The notes under the pieces are model-generated. The model searched no databases, was not told the DNA's origin, and saw nothing but the letters and a program-made list of their open reading frames with translations. A stretch of 59,382 nucleotides of DNA, filler included, from Dimargaris cristalligena (Eukaryota), in NCBI GenBank assembly GCA_003614675.1. It is 5 parts of 5 records of this genome, joined end to end, with 100 filler letters (N's around TTAATTAATTAA, not from the genome) between each part and the next. Parts side by side here need not be neighbours in the genome. Positions count along the whole stretch, not along the records: positions 1 to 11,815 come from ML003083.1; 4 more parts are not named here. One strand, written 5' to 3'. Both the position numbers and the translations under genes were made by a program. Positions 3,204 through 14,706 of this stretch are shown here, one piece after another (position 1 is the stretch's first letter; every line of letters begins with the position of its first letter).

Positions 3204-5218
3204 GGAGAGGTATAGTGTTGGGCTAGGTTGCGGAGGTGATTACTGTACGAAGGGAATTAGTAGAAGCAACGGACGGAAATGCATAGCCAAGAGGGAAATA
3301 TCCAAAGGAGAAGGTACTTCTAAAGACAAAGGGAAGAAAGCAGTCGAGTTGCATAGAGCCAAGCGGGTGGTTTTGAAGGTTAAGAAGTATGTTGGCAGAA
3401 GAGAGTCTCGCACGCTGTCTCTTCCATTCTTTCACTGTCCCCCAGGCCCGCGCTGCCAGTAGAGTGTGGGGAAGGAGAGAACCGTTCTGCTTCTCCGATA
3501 CTCTCCCCGGCATTAAGGGTTTCGCATTAACATATAGTGTTCTCTCTCTCCCATGCACCCAAATATGAATATTCACCAGCCAAACCAACACCGTCATCAT
3601 CCACAAACAGTTTCACATGACCAGCCTGGGCCATTAAGCTGCCCTCTATATAATACGCACCTGCCTTTCCCCCCATCCAGTAGTATCCTATTATGAACAA
3701 GACTCCCCCCTCTACTCGACTCTGGCTTGGTTATATTATATTGGTTTCTCCACTAAGCATCAGTTAGGACAATTAAAGATCAGCCCTAGCCTTCTAACCA
3801 TAAAATGTTAGCTAATTTAGTGTCCCCATTGGGCTGTTTGTTTGAACATCTTGCATACGCTGTAACTTCCGTGGATCATGAAACCACTGCTAGTAGACCT
3901 CAACGTGATATTCACGCACCAATTCTATAGTAATAATGAGAAAGGTGTTGAGGACTGTATCCGTCCAAGATTCTGAGGGCTAGTACGTTATGCGGATTTG
4001 GGCATTTTGACATCGGGCGATTTTCTAGACAACTTAGTCGAGAAAAATATGACAATCTAGGGAGGAAAATCAAAGCTAAGTAGCAGCTATAAAATAATTA
4101 AGCATTTTGCTCCACAAGTGTCAAACAATATATTTTCTACAACTTACCAATTAGATTGCGACATGTCATTTTTATCAACCATACTTCTCGATTGGGTTTT
4201 GTATGTAGTTTAAGAGATTGAGTAAAAAACCTAAGTATCACTCTGAACTTTCCGACAGACCAAATCCAATCCAAGTTCGTCTACAAAAAATATTTCGTTT
4301 AAAATACCTCGGGGACGTCTTCAACGTAGTAACCCAACGCAAATCTATTATGTTTATTTGGGCCCTATTGATTGGAAATACGCTCTCCACATTCCAGCCC
4401 ACAAGTTCTTCATGGCTTCACACAATCAATGCCGTATTTCCATTTATAAGCCTAACTCGGGGAACATTGATAAAGGGCGGGCCGGAGATATACAAAAGAA
4501 AGTAGAACCACCATAAATCAGGCAAATGCTCAGTGTAATATAGTATAGCCAAATTTTCCTATTTTATACTGATGGCCAGTACAATCGAAACAAGTAGGCA
4601 TCGAAAATGTGGGACTGCAGCTTTGAATAGCGGCGACTGGCAATAGGGGCATCAGTACCAACCCAGATAAGTTCAAGCGAGTGGCTTCATTTTTTTATTA
4701 TGTTGATTAGTTAAACTCAGTATGGGGCAAGTTGCGTGTACGTCAATGTATCGATCATTGAAATTCAAGAGAGGACTGCGCGAGAGTTAAATAGGGAATT
4801 TGGTATTTACCTAGCGGTGGGGTCCATACCAACACTGTGCGTTAAACTATACAGCTAGCCAAAACAACGCCCTTATCGGCTAAAGTGAAGCGTGCGCATG
4901 AAATTCGATGAGCCTGGTTATGCACCGAAAGTGGAAGTTTATTTGGTTAGATTTAAGAGCTAAATTGGTTTTATACTGGAATAAGAATGAAGGCAACAGG
5001 GTGTAAATAGTGAGAATATATAGGTATGGAGAGAGAGAGAGAGAGAGAGAGAAAAGTTGTGGAAATAACAATGGTAATACGGGGTATAACACGGTACTAA
5101 AGGCAGAGCCAAGAGATAGAAAAAGAGAGGGTATATTCCACCCCATTTCTTCAGCAAAAAAACAATAATAATATAGTGGTATATAGATATGGATATATAT
5201 ATAATGCATCTAACCTAG

Positions 5219-8033
5219 TTAGTGCATGAAAACATCCAAACGATTGAGTTTTGAATACGTATCGGGGGGCATACGGAACTGGATCATACCCGCCAATACC
5301 ATCACTGAACGACCCTTTTTACGGTACAGGGCCAACTGGGACTGTTTGGTCGCATCCAGGAACTGGGACTGCTTGGTTTGGTTATATAAGTGACTCAGCG
5401 TATCCATGGTAGCAAGCAGGATATCAGGGAAATTCCGGGATACCGCCTCGTCCAAATCGCGGAGTTGTTCGGCGCGCCGGGTAATGACGGCCACATCGGC
5501 GTCCAAGGGGATGAGGTCCAGTTTCTCGATGATGAGGAGGGCGGCATCAAAACGACCCTGTTCGTGGGCGACCATGAAGTCCAGCAGACTCAGGATTTGG
5601 ATGCACGTCTCCCGGTGGTGGGTACTGATTTGGGCTTGGATATGGGGGTACCGCAGATAATGGTCCAGGATATTCTCGCCGAGACGCTTCACTTCGGGCG
5701 CCGTGAGTTGGGTGACCCCGGATGCCGTCAAGCCCAGGGCCCCGGAGGGCGTGGTAAAAGTAGGGGGGGGGATTGTTGGCATCGACGTTGCCCGCACTAG
5801 CAGCTACGGCCAGATGGTTACGTTCGGTCGGGTTGGAAAGAATTTCCCCGAGCTGCAGAATGATCAAGGCAATCACAGTATCATACTCCTCCGCCATGTT
5901 GTATAACAGGATGGCTTCGCCCAACCGACCGTCGCGCCGGCAATTTTCGGCCGCCTGTTTAGTAATAAGCTGCAGCGTATCAGCAGTAGCCGGGTCCGTC
6001 GCCAGTAACGGCTGGTAACGTTCCAGGAAGCCCTCGCTGCGGGACCCGTCGCGCTGCACCTCACCCAGCAGGTGGCCGTAGTCCGCGGTGTCGAGCAATA
6101 TGCCCTGAATGGCCTCGCTGGCCAAGGCGGCCTGGTGTTGGACGCGGGCGGAATCTTTGTCGGGCAAGAGACTGTGGAGACGGAGCAGGAACACGTAGTG
6201 GAGGGCCGATGGGGCGTCGGCGGGTCCGAAACGGTAGACGTAATCGCCCAGGATCTTGTTGAAGTTCAGGCAGTAAATTTCGTGCCCTTCGGCATCCACC
6301 ACCGTCGTCAGATAATCCAACACCCCCATGGGTTGATCCAAGGGAGTGACACGGATCAGTCCGTAGTACGCCAGGGCAATGGCGAAGTGAACCGCTTCGA
6401 TGCGGTAGCTCTCCAGCTGCAGGAGGTAGCCCACGGCCTGCTCAAACTGGGCACTCAGCAGGAGTACCTGGAAGTAAAGGACTGGGTTGTTGCCATTGGG
6501 GTTGAAGTGGTTGGCTCCGAAGCGCAGGAGCAGCTTTTGGAGGTCCCGAAGGGTGTAGCGTTCGTCCGGTACTTCTTCGGAACTGCTCGTTTCCCGGATA
6601 AGCATGAGCTGCAGCCAGATGTAGTCTTCGGTGGTTTGCACAACAGCGGGTACCGATTTACGGGCCAGTTCGCACCGGCCAATCAATTTCAGCATGGCTA
6701 GTTTGTAGGGATCACCCTGGTTGTGGGCGTTATGGGCCACACGTTGGTAGTCGCCTTGGAGGCGGTCCCGCAGGGATTTCGGCAAGCGGTGATCCTGGTC
6801 ATCCAAGTAGGCCTTGAGGTAGGTGAGAAAGTTGCGCTCGTTCTGGACCAAAAAGTTCTCGTGCCGCAGGGCGTATTGCAGAGCCTCCTTCGGATAACCG
6901 GCGCGGAACAGATAGTACATGTGGGCCCAAACGGGCTGACCTTGGTTCTTCTCCAGATTCTCCTGGCTTGAATCCGACCGGGCCAGCTTGACGTTGAGGT
7001 AGGCCTGGATTTTGTTATGAATCGACGGTACCCCACCCATTTGGGCTTCACGCGGGTACTGGGCGAGGATACGTTCCACGTACTGGACGAATTGTTCGTG
7101 TAGGTAATGGCGGGCCCCCCGGATCAGATAGGTACGGACCTGGACCGCCGTGAGGGAATCGTAGTTGCTGTGCAGATACGCGTCGCTGAATTCCGCTTCC
7201 ATTAGGGCACTGCTGGTATCCAATTTGCCGCCCGCCACGATACGCTCGTCGAGGATGGAGGAGAGCAAGTTCCAGCTCGTGATCATTTGCTGGGACCGGT
7301 CGTCACCGGAGAGAGTCCGGGCCACTTCCTCAAACTGCGCTACCACGGTACAGTCGGCATGCTGCAGCCGCTTATCGTTGAGGGTTTCCACCGCCGCAGC
7401 GTACTGTTGCATGCGGGGATTAAGCTGGAGGCTGGACCCCCGGCGCCGGCCGCCCAAATCGGCGGAACGATCGCCCAAACCCGCGAAGAAACGGTCCGAG
7501 TCAATAGTAGCGTCGTTCCCACTGGCCCGGGCGCCCCGCCCACCACCACTACTGCCACTGCCACGGTCGGTCTGGGCCGGGGGCTGACCCAACTCCTCCA
7601 ACAACCGCTGTTTGGCACGCTGCCAATCGGCCTGAAACGCACTTTCGTACGCGACCTCGAAATCCTGGCACGTTTCGCGGTACCCGCTTTCGAGGGCATT
7701 AACGATGAGTTGTTCGCGCTGGTAGTTCAAATACCCTTCCACGTCGGTATCGGGGATCGTTTGTACGGGTTCGAACGTGGTGGCCAGGTTGAAGGATCTA
7801 ATGGCCCGGGAGAGCTTGTCCGGGTCGACTCCCCCGCTAGCAAGAAGGAAATGCCCTTTGGCATCCGAACCAGGGGGCTCCAAAATCGTCCGGGACACCA
7901 GACGACGGGATTCCGATTCAATTTGACCGAGGCCCCGTTGGAGTGCAGGGAGATCGGTGGGGGTTATGTGGCTCGTAAGCTGCTGAGATTCCTCCAGCAG
8001 CTGCTTAAGGCGATTAGGGTTCGACTGGATCAT
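5219..8033 (-). CDS. NIC96: Nuclear pore protein Nic96/Nup93, split across two frames at a G9 run (5763-5771)
   Basis: ORF 5547..8033 has LQRGLGQIE, WAHMYYLFRAG, DPYKLAMLKLIGRC, TTEDYIWLQL, EAVHFAIALAYYGL; ORF 5219..5797 supplies the C-terminal LAGMIQFRMPPDTYSKLNRLD. Removing one base from the homopolymer joins them. Confidence 0.9.
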
Positions 8034-9766
8034 ACCGGGCTAGTCGATGGTAAACAGGTGGGGGGGAAGGACCGTTCTAGCTTCGGTTTCGAATCAAACT
8101 ATACTAGCAACAACAAAAAATAATAATCAAATGGTAACGGCAATGTTATTGGATAAATAAAAAGTGGCTGAAAGGTAATCAGTGCCGTGGAATGCCGAAT
8201 TGCGGAGTTCCAGTGGTGGAAGAAATAAACGCAGTGGATGAAGAAGGAGGCAATGTGGGGCTTGTATCCCTCCTATAAAACTGTGAATGAAGTATAGCCA
8301 ACCGGTGGAAGAGTTATTGCCTGGAACATTTCCTATAGGGCGGAATAGCCAGCGTAGTTTCATTCGGGGCTTATGCTGAGTTGCTTTCAAAGCTAATGCT
8401 CGCCAATGGCCCAACACTAACAGAGCGGTTGCCCACTCATAGATTTCTTATGATGGCCCGTAGCGATATTACCTAACGAGTGGCAAGCGAGTGCGGGATT
8501 TGTCTAACTATTGCTTGACGATGAATTAAGCTGAGTGTCTATAATGTGCTTTAATGTATTAGCAGGACCGACAGGCCCCATGTACATTTACTGAGGGGTA
8601 TACATAAAGACATATCATAATATCAACAAGAACATGTGAGTCCCAGGTGCGAATCCTCTCTTACCCCCATGCTTCTCGCCTTTAGACCGTGTTATACAAC
8701 TGGTCTATAGATACAATTTTCTCTCGTGAACTACTATAGTAATTGAACTTTAAATAAATTGTTGCCCAGACATACATTCTCGTATTTTTACAGGTCGAAT
8801 AATGAGATGCCCTTATACCACCTTCTGATAAGCCAGTACGCCTTGACTTGTGCTATCATTCCAAACAAAACTACAATCCAATAGGTGTATTGTCAGGTTA
8901 GGAATGTACAATAACTCCATACGCCTTTATCACGCACCTTCATAAAGTGACAGTACCTAATGCTCAGGACATTTACAGGTAAAGAACATGGAAACACCAC
9001 TCTCATTATAAATGCCCATGGGCCTTCTCGACTCTGTTTTATAGGGTAAAGAGAGTTGTCTATACATGGCTTGACTAAGATTTCCCCAACATAGTAAACC
9101 ATGCCGCATCGGTTTCCTAAGGGACATTATTCAGTCCTTTCACTATTGCTCCACAGTAGCTCGTCAACCTGAAGATATGGTGGTAATAATTATCGGCAGG
9201 TGGCCTACTCTTTATAATGTTGCTTTATACCGCCGCTTTCTAAGAATTCCAAGCCTCGAATTTGTTAGCATCCGCGTCACTCACGAAAATTTACGGGCCT
9301 TCCACTTGCTTTTTTGAATGGTCTTCCATCTAGCAATCAATCACCGGAAACCAATAGTATACTCATTATCTATGAGCTACTTTATAGTTTTTCTACTTAT
9401 AGCGAGCCCTTTACGTTATTCGTGAAGGTGTATTCATATTTTGCTTTATCAGTCTCCAGGTGTAGGAACTTAAGAGTCTACTGACCTTATATAAATATCC
9501 AATGAGTTTCCATCCCTTTTGATATTCAGATTTACTTGACAATCTATTCTTCAGCGACTGGTTACACTTAATATTTTCACCTTCCACCTCTCATTTCTCT
9601 ATAGGTTTGGTTTGCAAAATTACATTGCTACAACTGCCCCTTAAATATACACATATATATACGTGCTACTCCACCCATTCAAACCATATTCCTACAACCT
9701 GCAAGTTTATCAATATTCGTTCACATTAGCTCCAATATACATTAGTTATCCCATCATTACTACACA

Positions 9767-10768
9767 ATGCCACCCATAAAGCACTCGAAATCCACTGGCA
9801 GCCGGCGTCCGTTTCCCAAGAGCCGCTTTAGTATCACCCGAGCAGCCACCTCCGGTAAGGCTGCTCCCCGCTTCAAAGCGAAGCGTGGAAATAAATCTTC
9901 CACTGGCCAAATGGAGCTACCCAATACGCACCCTGAAGATGACGAGCCTTCGGTGGATATGCCCAAGGACATTTGTCCCGCCCAATCCATGCCGACCTCA
10001 CCGTCGCCATCGGCAACGCTCACTAGCGCCTCGGAAGGCGAATCGCAAGCCTTCTATGGAACCCAGTATACGTTGGATACCTCAGTCAATGGTGAACACC
10101 GACAAGCCCTCCTGGATATGGGGGCCCCTACCACGACCATATCGGAGTCAGATCTCCCTCTGTCCTACCAACTCATTGACACTGGCATGCGTTCCGATAT
10201 CGTTTTGGGGGGCGGAACCAGAGTAACCCCTCTAAAATACGCCATTGTGGAAGTTATTGTGGGCACCATGGCGAATATTTTAGCGGTGGCTGTACTCGCC
10301 CAGGGCCGGTTTCGCCTGGGCTCGGACTGGTTTGACATGGTCCAGCCCGTGCTGGATATACGCAAAAGTATCCTGACGATCGGAGATACCACCGTGCCAC
10401 TCCGGACCAACCACAGCTGGTTTAGAGATGTTAAAGTATCGGTAGTTTGCCGGAACTTGTACGCGAACTTGCCCGTCCATTCCTCGAATCCCCCCGAGTG
10501 TTCCTTTTACACGCATGAGGAGGTCGTTATTCCCCCCCGCGGGATGGTTACTGTGCTCATGGGCTGGGACATCAGTGCTCCGGTGGGTCACTACTGCACG
10601 ATTAAAGAATCCCCGACCCTGAAGCGGTGTCTATCCGTTCGGGAATGGTATACCGGAACTGATGACAAGAGCCAACTTACTATAGTTGTTCGCAACAAAT
10701 CTTCCAAGTTAGTCACCATTAAGAGGGGCACTTGGCTTATTGTTCTAGCGCTAAAACGCTGTTACTAA
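9767..10768 (+). CDS. Retropepsin-like aspartic protease domain fused to a degenerate trimeric-dUTPase-fold domain (333 aa, intronless)
   Basis: VNGEHRQALLDMGAPTTTIS and FRLGSDWF resemble the retropepsin LxD(T/S)GA and ILGxD motifs; EEVVIPPRGMVTVLMGWDISAPVGHYCTI...LTIVVRNKSSKLVTIKRGTWLIVL follows the dUTPase beta-strand pattern. Confidence 0.7.
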   Translation: MPPIKHSKSTGSRRPFPKSRFSITRAATSGKAAPRFKAKRGNKSSTGQMELPNTHPEDDEPSVDMPKDICPAQSMPTSPSPSATLTSASEGESQAFYGTQYTLDTSVNGEHRQALLDMGAPTTTISESDLPLSYQLIDTGMRSDIVLGGGTRVTPLKYAIVEVIVGTMANILAVAVLAQGRFRLGSDWFDMVQPVLDIRKSILTIGDTTVPLRTNHSWFRDVKVSVVCRNLYANLPVHSSNPPECSFYTHEEVVIPPRGMVTVLMGWDISAPVGHYCTIKESPTLKRCLSVREWYTGTDDKSQLTIVVRNKSSKLVTIKRGTWLIVLALKRCY

Positions 10769-11499
10769 ACGCGCCCAACCGAAGACCTAGTAGTGTATTA
10801 CAGCTCATTCGGCGTAAAAAAATATTGCTCCGAAGCGCCAGTTAAATACTCTGCCAAAGAGGGCTGGTGGGTAGGGTGCCTAGAATAAAGCAGTCCTTGA
10901 TTTATCTTCAACCATTTAAAAGTTTCTATGTACTCGGATAAGTATGAGATGTAGATACTATGCACTATCTCCATTTTAAAAATGACATTGCTTCCCTTTC
11001 TGTTTATATTATTTTAACATATTTTGATTAGAATCGCTAAATAAATTATTGGAAAAGGAAAGCGTGCGAAGGCTTTATCGTTATTGGATAATGGACAGGT
11101 TATCTTGGCCATCGGTGAATGGTATTTTTGTGTTACTCAGTTACACCGTCCAACTGTACGAAGTATTGGCAATGGCCAACCCACCCTTGTATTTAGCCAT
11201 GCCGGAAAAACGCTCTAGTCACTATTGGGGCTAAATGTACTCAAAAGGTCCAAGGGTGGTACTCAACCCACTCACATTTTTATTATATATTCGCTCAATA
11301 CTTTTAATGTGACACCTTGATTATACAGCTAAGCCGTGGTGTGGGTATTGGCTATAAGTATGGGACCATCCCCCCCCGTTCCTCCCGACCCCTCGCGTTC
11401 ACCATCTTTCCACCCTCTCGGCGTAGTTTTTTAATTTTGTCTATTACATTACCTTCCTTTCCATTCTTCTAGCAACGATATTTGCAATCACTGACAACC

Positions 11500-11815
11500 A
11501 TGTTTCCCCGGGTTTATTATACTCTGCCAACCCAAATTATGGTTGGGCTACTGGCTGTGTCCGTCCACTCGGCGTGGATAGACAGACCCGGTACCCAGCT
11601 CCCCGCCTATTTGATGGGCAATAGCCATTGGTCCGAATTTCTACCCCATGTCCCCTTTTCTGACCCCTATGATCCCGTCGTAGGGGATGTCGACATGACA
11701 CCTCCCACCGATTGGCCCAGCGACCCGCCGCTCACCAGCGAACAGGTTCGGTCTATGGAAGAGACCTACCTCGACCTCGACCTCGACCTCGACCTCGACC
11801 TCGACCTCGACCTCG
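11500..11815 (+). CDS. Hypothetical protein with signal-peptide-like N-terminus, truncated by contig end
   Basis: ATG at 11500; MFPRVYYTLPTQIMVGLLAVSVHSAW... open to the linker, ending in a (DL)n repeat. Confidence 0.4.
11768..11815. repeat. (ACCTCG)8 hexamer microsatellite at contig end
   Basis: Eight perfect copies running into the N linker. Confidence 0.95.
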
Positions 11816-11915
11816 NNNNNNNNNNNNNNNNNNNNNNNNNNNNNNNNNNNNNNNNNNNNTTAATTAATTAANNNNNNNNNNNNNNNNNNNNNNNNNNNNN
11901 NNNNNNNNNNNNNNN
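11816..11915. other. Artificial contig linker (N44-TTAATTAATTAA-N44)
   Basis: 100-bp spacer with stops in all frames, repeated identically four times in the window. Confidence 0.98.
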
Positions 11916-12206
11916 CTATGGAAAGGATCGACCTCCTCCCTCTGAGTGGTGACGGTCGCCCTTGGTTGCAGTATAAATGGGCCATGTAAAGTGGGGATAT
12001 TGGTTGAACAGGATATCTGATAGGTTGGCTAAATTCAGTCACGCGCGTGACCTAAGACCAGAATAATAGTCCTTGCCACTGCTGGGAAATTGGGTACTTT
12101 GAATAAGAATCGAGTGATTTGAAAAAAAAAAAACAACAACAGTGATATGATAGTGGAGAAGTAGTAGAGCACCTTATCCGTAATATGACCTGGACATGAA
12201 TGAATA

Positions 12207-14706
12207 TTAGTGGGACGGTAGGGTAGGTCGAGACGAGAATGCTTCACTAGTCTTAAAATTGCCAATGATATCCTCTGCTGCATACAGCATTTCCAGCGTC
12301 ATTTGGTACACCTCCGAGTCTTCGCTGTTATACATGAGCGCATTCTGGAGCATCAGTAGAATGTCGCGGTGAAATTCGTCGGTGGTCGTGATTTTCTAAA
12401 TTGGGAGAATATGTTAAACAGCAGGGTAAAATTGGCGGGAAAAAATGGTTAGAGAAAGGCGTAGCATCGGGAAATAGTCGCCTGAGAATGGGCGTATACC
12501 ACACTGGCGGAGAGGCAAAGAAGCTACGGGCGAGGAACTTACATCGTCCCGAATGCGCAAGCGGATGGTCTTCAAATCAATGGGTCGCTTAATTATATCG
12601 TAGTAACCGGGCGCGTCCTGAGCCTTGATTGGAATGGTGAACAGGCTGGCGGAACGGTGGTTGGCAATATCCTGCCAAATCATGAAAATCAGCTTCTTCC
12701 AGTTTTTGAGCTTCTTGTCCCCACGCTGTTCGGTGGCATAGTCGCTGTCTTCGGGAATATCTGCTTCGTCGGCGGACTCGATCCCCTCCGTCTGACCCGG
12801 CGGCTTAGCATCCATGGTAAAATCGGCCGTTTCGGAAGGGGTTTCCTCCAGAAAGGAAGGGGACGTTGGTTCGGGCTTAACATCGGACTCATGGGCTGGG
12901 GATCCGGCGCCCGATTGCGATTCTTCAGCCAAAATGGGAGTTTCTTCTACCAGTGATACGGGCGTTTCCTCAATGATTCGGGCATTAGAATCGGACACAT
13001 CAGTAGGGCTAGTTTCATCCTGGATTGACTGATTGACAGGGCCGCTATCACTGGAGGCGGGCGTATCAGGCTGCATTGCAGGTGTACCATCGTGGGTGCT
13101 GTTCGCTGACCCGTAGCACTCCTCATCTTCGGGTTCGCTTTCTGATTTAACCGACGGGTTATCCACTGAAATCGATTCTTCGAGATCCTCTTGGAGGTTC
13201 TTCATATCCTCGGGGTTGTTCGAAGGCGAACTGGTTGAGGACCGGTCCGAAGCTGATTCGACAGGAGGGGGTGGGGGAGAGTGGGCCGCAGGGGACGATG
13301 GGCTAGTGTCCTCTCGGTCCACATCAGACTGATCCTCCACTGACACCGATTCGGCCAGGGTTGGCTGGACCTCGGGCTCATCAATGTCCATGGCATCTAG
13401 ATTATGGGGTTCTGTCGAATTAGTCGGGTGTTCATTTTGCGAAGGTTTTATAAGTTCGATGGCAGTGTCGGATACCGATGGCTCTAGTTATAAGAAATTG
13501 TTCACATGGTAGTTTCGGCAATATTTTATGGGCGGGGTCGGAACAGGGAGAAGCACAGTCTAGGATATTCTAGTTAAGTCACGAATAGTCAACATGGCAC
13601 CAGGACAGCTCATTTCCTATACATGCCACTATAATATATAGGCAAGCCTAGACAAAACCAATTCGTCCTATAGGTCAACTTACGTGATATAGTGTCTGGA
13701 AATACCTCGTGGATTAGCTTGCGTTTGGTCTGCCGGTCAACAATTTCGGTGATTTTCCGTTTCAGCTGGCTCACTTCGAATTGGCTATTATTGATGGAGT
13801 CTAGGTCGGAGACTAGGCGCCTGATTTGAGTGGGGGAGTAGAAGGGGGATTGAAGTAAGAACCAATACTTAAGTATATATTGAATGATGTCCGGTTTGAC
13901 TGTCTCTGTCGAAGAATAAAGCCGATGGGCCCGAAATTGCGGGTTCTAACTAACCCACTTACTTGAATTCATCGCGGTTTTCCTGCGCCTGGCGCTCTAA
14001 TTCTTCAATGTACTTCTTTCGGATAATGGCTGCTAATTTTTCGGTGACTGAGAGGGTTTAAAAAGAGATGCCAACCATTTAAATTCGGAATTTAGTAAAC
14101 CTGGGTATGGCTTCCAACCAGTATTCTCCTGCGAATTCAAATATTCGAAGCGGCATCATGGACCAAGTGAGTCAATACCGTAGCATCAGCTGTACTGGAC
14201 CAAAACCTGGTTGACAGTGGGGAAATAGTGACAATCCTTACCCGAAACCCCTTCACCTAATTCTTTTCTGTTAACGCACGAGTCGGTTGGAAGTCAGATA
14301 TAGTATAGTTAAGCAGTGTTTAAGCATTAGTACCAGAATCGGTGTTTTGTTAGAATGGGGGGCATTGGGAGAGCAGAGCTCTATAAGAGCAGCCGGCATT
14401 CTGGGGAGTAAGGAGCCAGGGACGTAGTAACCCAACAAAGCAACAATAGACTTACAATGCATCCGCGTATTCGGCTACCAAGGATTCATAGCGTTGTTGG
14501 CATTGGCCGGGGGATAGATTAGTATCCATGAGACACTTAACGAACTTGGCGTCGTTTGCGATCCTGCGCTGGGACGAATGGGTGATGTTAACTAGGGCCT
14601 CTGCAGTAGCTTGGGCGACCTGTTTCCAGCCATTAAGGCCATGTCGAAGGGTGGCATAGAGAAGCAGAAGTGAAATGCGGGTGGTGTAAAAACCGGGCTG
14701 AGTCAT
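12207..14706 (-). CDS. BRD8-like bromodomain protein (N-terminal SANT/Myb-like region, acidic linker, C-terminal bromodomain); 6 exons (14706-14456, 14267-14242, 14047-13963, 13820-13684, 13483-12543, 12395-12207)
   Basis: In-frame splicing through a 26-nt microexon; N-terminal LLLLYATLRHGLNGWKQVA...SPGQCQQRYESL and bromodomain WKKLIFMIWQDIANHRSASLF...APGYYDIIKRPIDLKTIR...EFHRDILLMLQNALMYN. Confidence 0.8.

What the first reader, a model, noticed from the sequence alone, without database searches (positions are those of the whole stretch)
9767..10768. Stand-alone retropepsin + pseudo-dUTPase fusion gene: candidate domesticated retroelement protein
Seen: an intact, intronless 333-aa ORF with a basic, NLS-like N-terminus (KHSKSTGSRRPFPKSRF...KAKRGNK), a retropepsin-like domain with D-M-G in place of D-T/S-G, and a C-terminal dUTPase-like fold whose catalytic motifs look eroded (no GxDL, RSS/G or GxIDxDY). 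I see no gag, RT, integrase or LTR on the rest of the contig. Known: protease and dUTPase are neighbours in some retroviral and LTR-element polyproteins, and catalytically dead dUTPase folds are reused by herpesviruses and adenovirus E4-ORF1. Inference: an open frame kept after both active sites drifted suggests exaptation as a scaffold or nuclear protein rather than simple decay.
Basis: partly seen in the sequence, partly recalled or inferred. Interest (0 to 1): 0.72.

Follow-up and report, generated by a model that had tools for sequence, protein, structure and literature searches.

The report
Tamed transposon protease–dead dUTPase gene
A fungus appears to have kept a single gene made from two pieces of a jumping gene, a protease and a dUTPase that still fold but have probably lost their enzyme activity, possibly as a decoy against the jumping genes it came from; whether the gene is expressed and what it does are not yet shown.

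Summary
The 333-aa ORF is real and single-copy. Both folds are confirmed: retropepsin (aa 95-216) and dUTPase (aa 217-333). The protease belongs to a resident Ty3/Gypsy family whose intact copy reads CCHC-PR-RT-RH-dUTPase-INT (48 of 120 identical; SH-aLRT 98). No Gag, RT, integrase or LTR trace remains in the flanks. The dUTPase half kept 0 of 12 conserved motif residues but 5 of 5 structural ones and 18 of 19 core hydrophobics; motif 5 is missing. CpG and codon use are host-like, unlike the most decayed element copies. This points to selection for fold without catalysis, so domestication is likely (about 0.7). Against: no orthologue, no dN/dS, no RNA data; D-M-G also arises in 2 of 5 family copies by decay; the dUTPase donor is unresolved; the N-terminal NLS is untested. 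Likeliest mechanism (inferred, about 0.36): a non-catalytic decoy for the elements' oligomeric protease or dUTPase. The scan had not noted this on other DNA. New variant of a known kind.

The parts
9767..10768 (+). Single-copy 333-aa ORF: basic/acidic N-terminus + retropepsin + pseudo-dUTPase
   Evidence: one DNA match in the genome for 8200-11815; one piece in 3 of 4 read assemblies; GC 0.54, GC3 0.60, CpG o/e 0.90 against flank GC 0.40-0.41
9767..10048 (+). N-terminal 94 aa, Lys/Arg-rich then Ser/Pro/Asp/Glu-rich; lies where the Gag end would be, no CCHC knuckle; origin not shown
   Evidence: sequence; similarity to the Gag ends of two relatives no better than shuffles (987 and 129 of 1000 shuffles as good); coding-like GC begins at the ORF start
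10049..10414 (+). Retropepsin domain (aa 95-216) of Gypsy family A type
   Evidence: 48 of 120 identical to the intact element on G000:C272, 42 of 120 to P0003, 25 of 117 to a Ddi1-like host gene; clade support 98; structure
10115..10123 (+). Active-site triad D117-M118-G119 (Asp kept, Thr/Ser replaced)
   Evidence: same triad in decayed copies on G000:C1042 and C1331
10403..10432 (+). Approximate in-frame junction between protease and dUTPase fold
   Evidence: protease alignment to the element ends at aa 216; dUTPase alignment begins near aa 221-226; DNA similarity to family A stops at about ORF base 616
10415..10765 (+). Pseudo-dUTPase (aa 217-333): full beta-fold, motifs 1-4 lost, ends before motif 5

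Best explanation
A host-retained gene derived from a Ty3/Gypsy Pol, encoding a folded two-domain protein without enzyme activity, which most likely acts as a decoy against the resident dUTPase-bearing elements. Shown: folds, source family of the protease, single copy, loss of dUTPase motifs with retention of the core. Inferred origin: one element lost the part between protease and dUTPase in frame (about 0.55; the alternative is capture of a host-type dUTPase, or a parent with PR-dUT order), then lost Gag, integrase and LTRs. Inferred status: kept by purifying selection as a host gene (about 0.7). Inferred mechanism: retropepsins work as dimers and dUTPases as trimers, so a folded dead subunit can join and spoil the elements' enzymes, hindering polyprotein processing or letting uracil into element cDNA. 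The confidence given is for the whole statement, mechanism included.
For: Intact family element with a 1963-aa frame and 55 identical terminal bases at the contig edge, so the family was recently active; 33 dUTPase matches in the genome, 24 of 30 fetched beside PR, RT, RH or INT matches. Of 17 columns conserved among 14 enzyme-type dUTPases, 0 of 12 motif columns and 5 of 5 structural columns are kept (Fisher p 1.6e-4); 18 of 19 core columns stay hydrophobic against 31 of 100 elsewhere. Neutral loss of 12 of 12 implies about 0.9 substitutions per site or more, at which 333 codons stay stop-free with probability near 1e-6 to 1e-7. Protease: 32 of 57 columns shared by two relatives are kept, against 16 and 10 of 63 variable ones. 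CpG o/e 0.90 (11 host genes 0.86-1.15; three decayed family copies 0.00-0.04); host codon use fits better than a neutral model by 30 log units and better than six elements by 25 or more. No element remains in the flanks (17 loci by nhmmer, 23 long frames by tblastn). Precedent for restriction by a domesticated fragment in a fungus: DRT2 (PMC10951436, abstract).
Against: No orthologue among 1.84 billion representatives (3 hits: itself, a Gag-PR-RT fragment, a dUTPase), although relatives' Nic96 is on record at 58-62% identity; so no dN/dS. Three open-frame elements also have CpG o/e 0.84-1.18, two of them GC3 0.65-0.66, so composition does not separate 'host gene' from 'young insertion'. The Thr/Ser that was replaced stabilises the protease dimer (PMC7072860, passages), which works against joining a partner; the protease is only 40% identical to today's element; there is no capsid domain to bring it into particles. 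One change would kill a subunit; 12 of 12 suggests long drift or a new surface instead. The dUTPase half scores higher to host-like dUTPases than to the family's own (25.2 against 7.6 bits). The split into motif and structural columns was made from recalled motif definitions after the alignment was seen.
Confidence: 0.36

Rival explanations
1. Domesticated host gene with a role unrelated to transposon control: the dead dUTPase fold serves as a protein-binding module (as adenovirus E4-ORF1 does), the protease fold as a peptide clamp or weak protease (as Ddi1 or ASPRV1), the basic N-terminus possibly targeting the nucleus.
For: All the selection evidence above applies equally. Identity to the host dUTPase is 0 of 12 at motif columns and 29 of 100 elsewhere (p 0.034), as if the pocket had been remodelled. 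The catalytic Asp117 and the L-G-x-D-W helix motif are kept. E4-ORF1 resembles dUTPase, lacks activity and signals (PMC5622948, passage).
Against: No orthologue, so the role would be lineage-specific. No partner, location or pathway is indicated by any search. Neighbours (Nic96, a bromodomain gene) give no hint.
Confidence: 0.33
2. A fairly recent, functionless fragment of an unsampled Gypsy lineage that already carried a non-catalytic dUTPase fold behind its protease. The selection for fold then happened in the element, not in the host.
For: Family A elements do carry a degenerate dUTPase-like region right after the protease (weak profile matches, E 4e-5 to 5e-3 for a single comparison; hhalign probability 28%). 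The protease branch (0.88) is barely longer than that of a relative with an intact triad (0.73). An element with PR-dUT-RT order is in the genome and aligns across both halves (25% over 213 columns, E 5.5e-4). D-M-G is one CpG-type change from the intact element's triad.
Against: The domain has the N-terminal strands and spacing of enzyme-type dUTPases, which the post-protease relic lacks, and scores 10.7 bits to the relic profile against 22-25 to enzyme profiles. No parent copy: one DNA match in the genome, flat depth. No RT downstream, no Gag or knuckle upstream, and GC falls to 0.35-0.38 just before the start codon.
Confidence: 0.26
3. An old, neutrally decaying element remnant whose frame is open by chance.
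For: Orphan; both catalytic signatures damaged; D-M-G matches the decay pattern of dead copies.
Against: Stop-free probability about 1e-5 at 0.5 and 1e-7 at 1.0 substitutions per site, before frameshifts; GC3 200 of 333 against 0.46 expected (p 1.8e-7); core hydrophobics kept 18 of 19; CpG not stripped.
Confidence: 0.05

Closest known systems
dUTPase-bearing fungal Ty3/Gypsy (Metaviridae) elements of Postia, Phanerochaete and Tuber (PMC2864245, passages); here the element on G000:C272
   Same: Protease of the same family as the resident element; dUTPase fold in the same polypeptide; PR-then-dUT order occurs in such elements
   Different: No Gag, RT, RNase H, integrase or LTR; single copy; dUTPase motifs lost; protease triad D-M-G
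Domesticated retroelement proteases: Ddi1/Ddi2, ASPRV1, PEG10 and RTL3 protease (PMC7072860 and PMC11011659, passages; ASPRV1 and PEG10 from the listing)
   Same: Stand-alone retropepsin fold outside an element; best structural hits are Ddi1 proteases
   Different: Not a Ddi1 (25 of 117 identical to a host Ddi1-like gene, separate clade); Thr/Ser lost; fused to a dead dUTPase. [quoted passage not shown]
DRT2 and Ty1 p22/p18 restriction factors of Saccharomyces (PMC10951436, abstract)
   Same: Element fragment kept by a fungal host; proposed trans-acting inhibition of the parent family
   Different: Those are capsid fragments of Ty1/Copia with shown activity; this is a Pol fragment of a Gypsy element with no activity shown
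Viral pseudo-dUTPases: adenovirus E4-ORF1 (PMC5622948, passage) and herpesvirus dUTPase-related proteins (Pfam Herpes_ORF11; their biology is recalled)
   Same: dUTPase fold kept, catalytic motifs lost; best Pfam hit of the domain is Herpes_ORF11 (E 2e-4, under cut-off)
   Different: Cellular chromosome of a fungus, retrotransposon-linked origin, fused to a protease; the resemblance is most likely convergent

Membership tests
Ty3/Gypsy LTR retrotransposon (element) | LTRs, Gag, RT, RNase H, integrase at the locus | tested here: not met
   No hit in the flanks from 17 element loci (nhmmer) or 23 long element frames (tblastn); no long repeat in 5000-14000; only 1 kb of contig downstream
Ty3/Gypsy LTR retrotransposon (element) | Multiple dispersed copies | tested here: not met
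   1 DNA match; flat depth in 4 runs that may be the source of this DNA; the genome search gives lower bounds
Derived from Gypsy family A Pol | Protease groups with family A proteases | tested here: met
   SH-aLRT 98 in a 16-row quick tree; DNA similarity E 1e-9
Derived from Gypsy family A Pol | dUTPase half groups with family A dUTPases | tested here: inconclusive
   Best tree places it with family A at support 24; host-dUTPase placement not rejected, p-AU 0.31; profiles favour host-like dUTPases; sites shared with the host enzyme 16, with family A 6
Retropepsin (active aspartic protease) | Retropepsin fold | tested here: met
Retropepsin (active aspartic protease) | D-T/S-G motif | tested here: not met
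   D-M-G; PMC6058741 lists DMG motifs as predicted inactive (table passage, a prediction); note D-P-G in open-frame family B elements here
Retropepsin (active aspartic protease) | Dimer formation and proteolysis | not testable with these tools
   needs assay
Trimeric dUTPase (active enzyme) | dUTPase beta-fold | tested here: met
Trimeric dUTPase (active enzyme) | Five conserved motifs | tested here: not met
   0 of 12 motif 1-4 columns kept; frame ends before motif 5, whose loss cut kcat 1e5-fold or more in M-PMV dUTPase (PMC1802613, passages)
Domesticated retroelement gene | Single copy, immobile, open frame | tested here: met
Domesticated retroelement gene | Purifying selection after immobilisation (dN/dS, syntenic orthologues) | tested here: inconclusive
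   No orthologue found; indirect site-pattern and composition evidence only
Domesticated retroelement gene | Expression | not testable with these tools
   no RNA holder listed
Retrotransposon restriction factor (DRT2-like) | Binds element proteins and lowers mobility | not testable with these tools
   needs experiment

The most novel reading that the evidence does not exclude
An early-diverging fungus has domesticated a Gypsy Pol fragment as a two-pronged restriction factor: a dead protease subunit and a dead dUTPase subunit in one chain, poisoning the dimeric protease and the trimeric dUTPase of resident elements. It would be a Pol-derived rather than capsid-derived restriction factor, and the first domesticated retrotransposon pseudo-dUTPase as far as my searches reach.
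Probability: 0.25. Interest if true: 0.85.

Novelty: new variant of a known kind. Interest (0 to 1): 0.56.

Why it matters
Domesticated LTR-element genes are known mostly from capsid, protease, integrase or envelope parts and mostly from animals, plants and yeasts (partly recalled). A retained but catalytically erased dUTPase from a retrotransposon was not found in my literature searches (open-licence library only, so subscription papers are missed). If expressed and selected, it shows a cell reusing the dUTPase fold as viruses do. It also offers a tool for an open question: why fungal Gypsy elements carry dUTPase at all (PMC2864245 calls its role unclear).

Tried and rejected
Homologue searches: near length, 1 hit (itself) among 1542 candidates; longer, 0 of 1264 (weak: it also missed nothing it could be checked on); metagenome and viral contigs, none (close relatives only). 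RNA: no RNA holder listed. Homotrimer prediction of the dUTPase half: no answer, score 0.00, my alignment was not used; no evidence either way. Cluster look-up for P0001-P0003 could not be made, so the organism of P0003 is unknown. A possible paralogue on G000:C664 (E 0.029) was rejected: the match sits in a frame full of stops with no protease or dUTPase around it. Ddi1 origin rejected. N-terminus as Gag or zinc-knuckle relic: not better than shuffles. A trace of motif 5 behind the stop: not significant, 36 to 140 of 200 shuffled tails score as well. Origin from the family's post-protease relic: disfavoured. Atlas feature search: best 0.88 (dUTPase + retroviral protease clusters), a lead only. 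Rows dropped from trees: 3 partial dUTPases; 19 of 31 rows used. Family letters A-H are my own labels.

Full report
Observation. The ORF 9767-10768 (+) is open for 333 codons. It lies between a Nic96 gene and a short ORF running into the contig end at 11815; the rest of the window is N or other contigs. The neighbour Nic96 is identical to a record named Dimargaris cristalligena, and its closest relatives on record are 58-62% identical. Contigs from three of four public DNA runs span the locus in one piece, with flat depth and no difference inside the ORF; these runs may be the source of the assembly. The DNA of 8200-11815 has one match in the genome.

Folds. Residues 95-216 pass the Pfam RVP cut-off narrowly (21.4 against 20.7 bits), model at pLDDT 90.9 and match Ddi1 and HIV proteases. 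Residues 217-333 stay under Pfam cut-offs (Herpes_ORF11 E 2e-4, dUTPase E 0.044), but model at pLDDT 87.3 and match dUTPases at TMq 0.76-0.80. My models leaned on alignments of 9 and 15 rows of the expected families, but the Atlas's own model gives the same two folds.

Source. The best protein match in the genome is an intact LTR element on G000:C272: one 1963-aa frame with CCHC, protease, RT, RNase H, dUTPase and integrase, bounded by a repeat whose 55 assembled bases are identical. I call this family A. The ORF's protease is 48 of 120 identical to it, 42 of 120 to the unnamed relative P0003, and 25 of 117 to a Ddi1-like host gene; it joins family A with SH-aLRT 98. The genome has 33 dUTPase matches; 24 of the 30 fetched lie beside PR, RT, RH or INT matches, in three orders: RH-dUT-INT, dUT-PR-RT and PR-dUT-RT. 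dUTPase in varying positions is known from fungal Gypsy elements (PMC2864245, passages; the two papers it cites for this were not read).

How the fusion arose is not settled. In family A about 570 aa separate protease and dUTPase, so one in-frame deletion would give this ORF; three residues (W267, E281, R292) are shared with family A dUTPases and with none of the other groups, and the best tree puts the domain with family A, at support 24. Against this, identity is highest to the host dUTPase (29 of 112, against 20 of 112), profiles favour host-like enzymes (25.2 against 7.6 bits; the family A profile is diluted by decayed copies), and host placement is not rejected (p-AU 0.31). The branch is very long (2.7). 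I put the deletion at about 0.55.

Flanks. nhmmer with 17 element loci and tblastn with 23 long element frames hit only the ORF, never the 1.57 kb upstream or 1.05 kb downstream. In the element, integrase starts within about 80 codons of the dUTPase, so the short downstream stretch would have held it. GC rises from 0.35-0.38 to 0.55-0.58 at the ORF start. The N-terminal 94 aa have no knuckle and match Gag ends no better than shuffles; the NLS is a reading by eye.

Selection or decay. Of 17 columns conserved in at least 78% of 14 enzyme-type dUTPases, the ORF keeps 5: P257, G266, P272, Y276, N310, all outside the catalytic motifs; the 12 in motifs 1-4 are all changed (Fisher p 1.6e-4; motif boundaries recalled, and assigned after seeing the alignment). 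18 of 19 core columns stay hydrophobic against 31 of 100 elsewhere. The frame ends before motif 5, whose removal cut kcat at least 1e5-fold in M-PMV dUTPase (PMC1802613, passages). If the 12 were lost neutrally, the distance is about 0.9 substitutions per site or more; under an HKY model with GC 0.40, 333 codons then stay free of stops with probability 1e-6 to 1e-7, and GC3 should have sunk to about 0.46, against 0.60 seen. In the protease, 32 of 57 columns shared by two relatives are kept, against 16 and 10 of 63 variable ones. CpG o/e is 0.90, like 11 host genes (0.86-1.15) and unlike three decayed family copies (0.00-0.04) or the intact copy (0.48); earlier notes of this scan describe the same CpG stripping of repeats, which I had measured before reading them. 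Plain decay is therefore very unlikely.

Limits. These tests show selection for fold without catalysis, not that it happened in the host. It did if the dUTPase was still an enzyme when the piece was immobilised, which its enzyme-type length and N-terminal strands suggest. But family A carries a degenerate dUTPase-like region behind its protease (weak matches), so elements can keep such dead folds themselves, and three open-frame elements have host-like CpG too. D-M-G is one CpG-type change from the intact element's codon and is found in 2 of 5 family copies read; it says little about exaptation. No orthologue was found, so the gene is younger than the split from the sequenced relatives, too diverged, or unannotated there. 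Expression could not be tested.

Mechanism. The dUTPase half is almost surely inactive. The protease keeps Asp117; the lost Thr/Ser makes the dimer-stabilising fireman's grip (PMC7072860, passages), and D-M-G motifs are listed as predicted inactive among ERV-K proteases (PMC6058741, table passage), so activity is probably low or nil. A two-domain protein built from obligate oligomers, in a genome where the parent family was recently active, suggests a decoy that joins and spoils element protease dimers or dUTPase trimers; DRT2 is the fungal precedent, for capsid (PMC10951436, abstract). This step is inference only. A weakened dimer contact, 40% identity to today's protease and no capsid domain all count against it, and an unrelated host role in the manner of E4-ORF1 (PMC5622948, passage) is nearly as likely. 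Odds: decoy 0.36, other host role 0.33, fragment of an unsampled element 0.26, neutral relic 0.05.

Novelty. Domesticated retroelement proteases and viral pseudo-dUTPases are both known. A stand-alone protease plus pseudo-dUTPase was not found in searches of the open-licence library (listings seen; passages read as cited; no supplements opened), and PMC11011659 (passage) notes that dUTPase was not retained in the domesticated mammalian genes it studied. The scan holds no look-alike. Verdict: new variant of a known kind, a good but unproven candidate in a single species; interest 0.56.

Noticed in passing
L011:3233-3493 (-), and P0003 aa about 448-535: Family A elements carry an 80-aa region between protease and RT that weakly matches dUTPase profiles (E 4e-5 to 5e-3 for single comparisons; hhalign 28%; no Pfam hit), besides the intact dUTPase between RNase H and integrase: possibly two dUTPase folds in one Pol.
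   Followed up: partly
L052, L054, L035, L037, L038, L086, L087: Several Gypsy families in this genome have D-P-G instead of D-T/S-G in the protease, in long open frames; family B has the order dUTPase-protease-RT.
   Followed up: no
L053 (G000:C1534): Element with PR-dUT-RT-RH-INT order and a host-like dUTPase; a few stops. One genome thus holds dUTPase at three positions in Pol.
   Followed up: partly
L056:5077-5529 (G000:C725): Second host-like dUTPase sequence whose first motif region does not align in frame (intron or damage).
   Followed up: no
L055 (G000:C1902): dUTPase on a short contig with unrelated ORFs and peptide repeats, no RT nearby; may be viral or foreign.
   Followed up: no
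L075 (G000:C149), L076 (G000:C5): Two Ddi1-like protease genes in this genome.
   Followed up: no
window 11500-11815 (+): ORF with a signal-peptide-like start and an Asp-Leu repeat running into the contig end; no Pfam match.
   Followed up: partly
window 8682-8691: Four bases differ from all four read assemblies: probably an assembly error in the window, outside the ORF.
   Followed up: no
window 9760-9772 and 10884-10889: Start context CACAATG and an AATAAA about 115 bases after the stop; seen by eye, chance not assessed.
   Followed up: no
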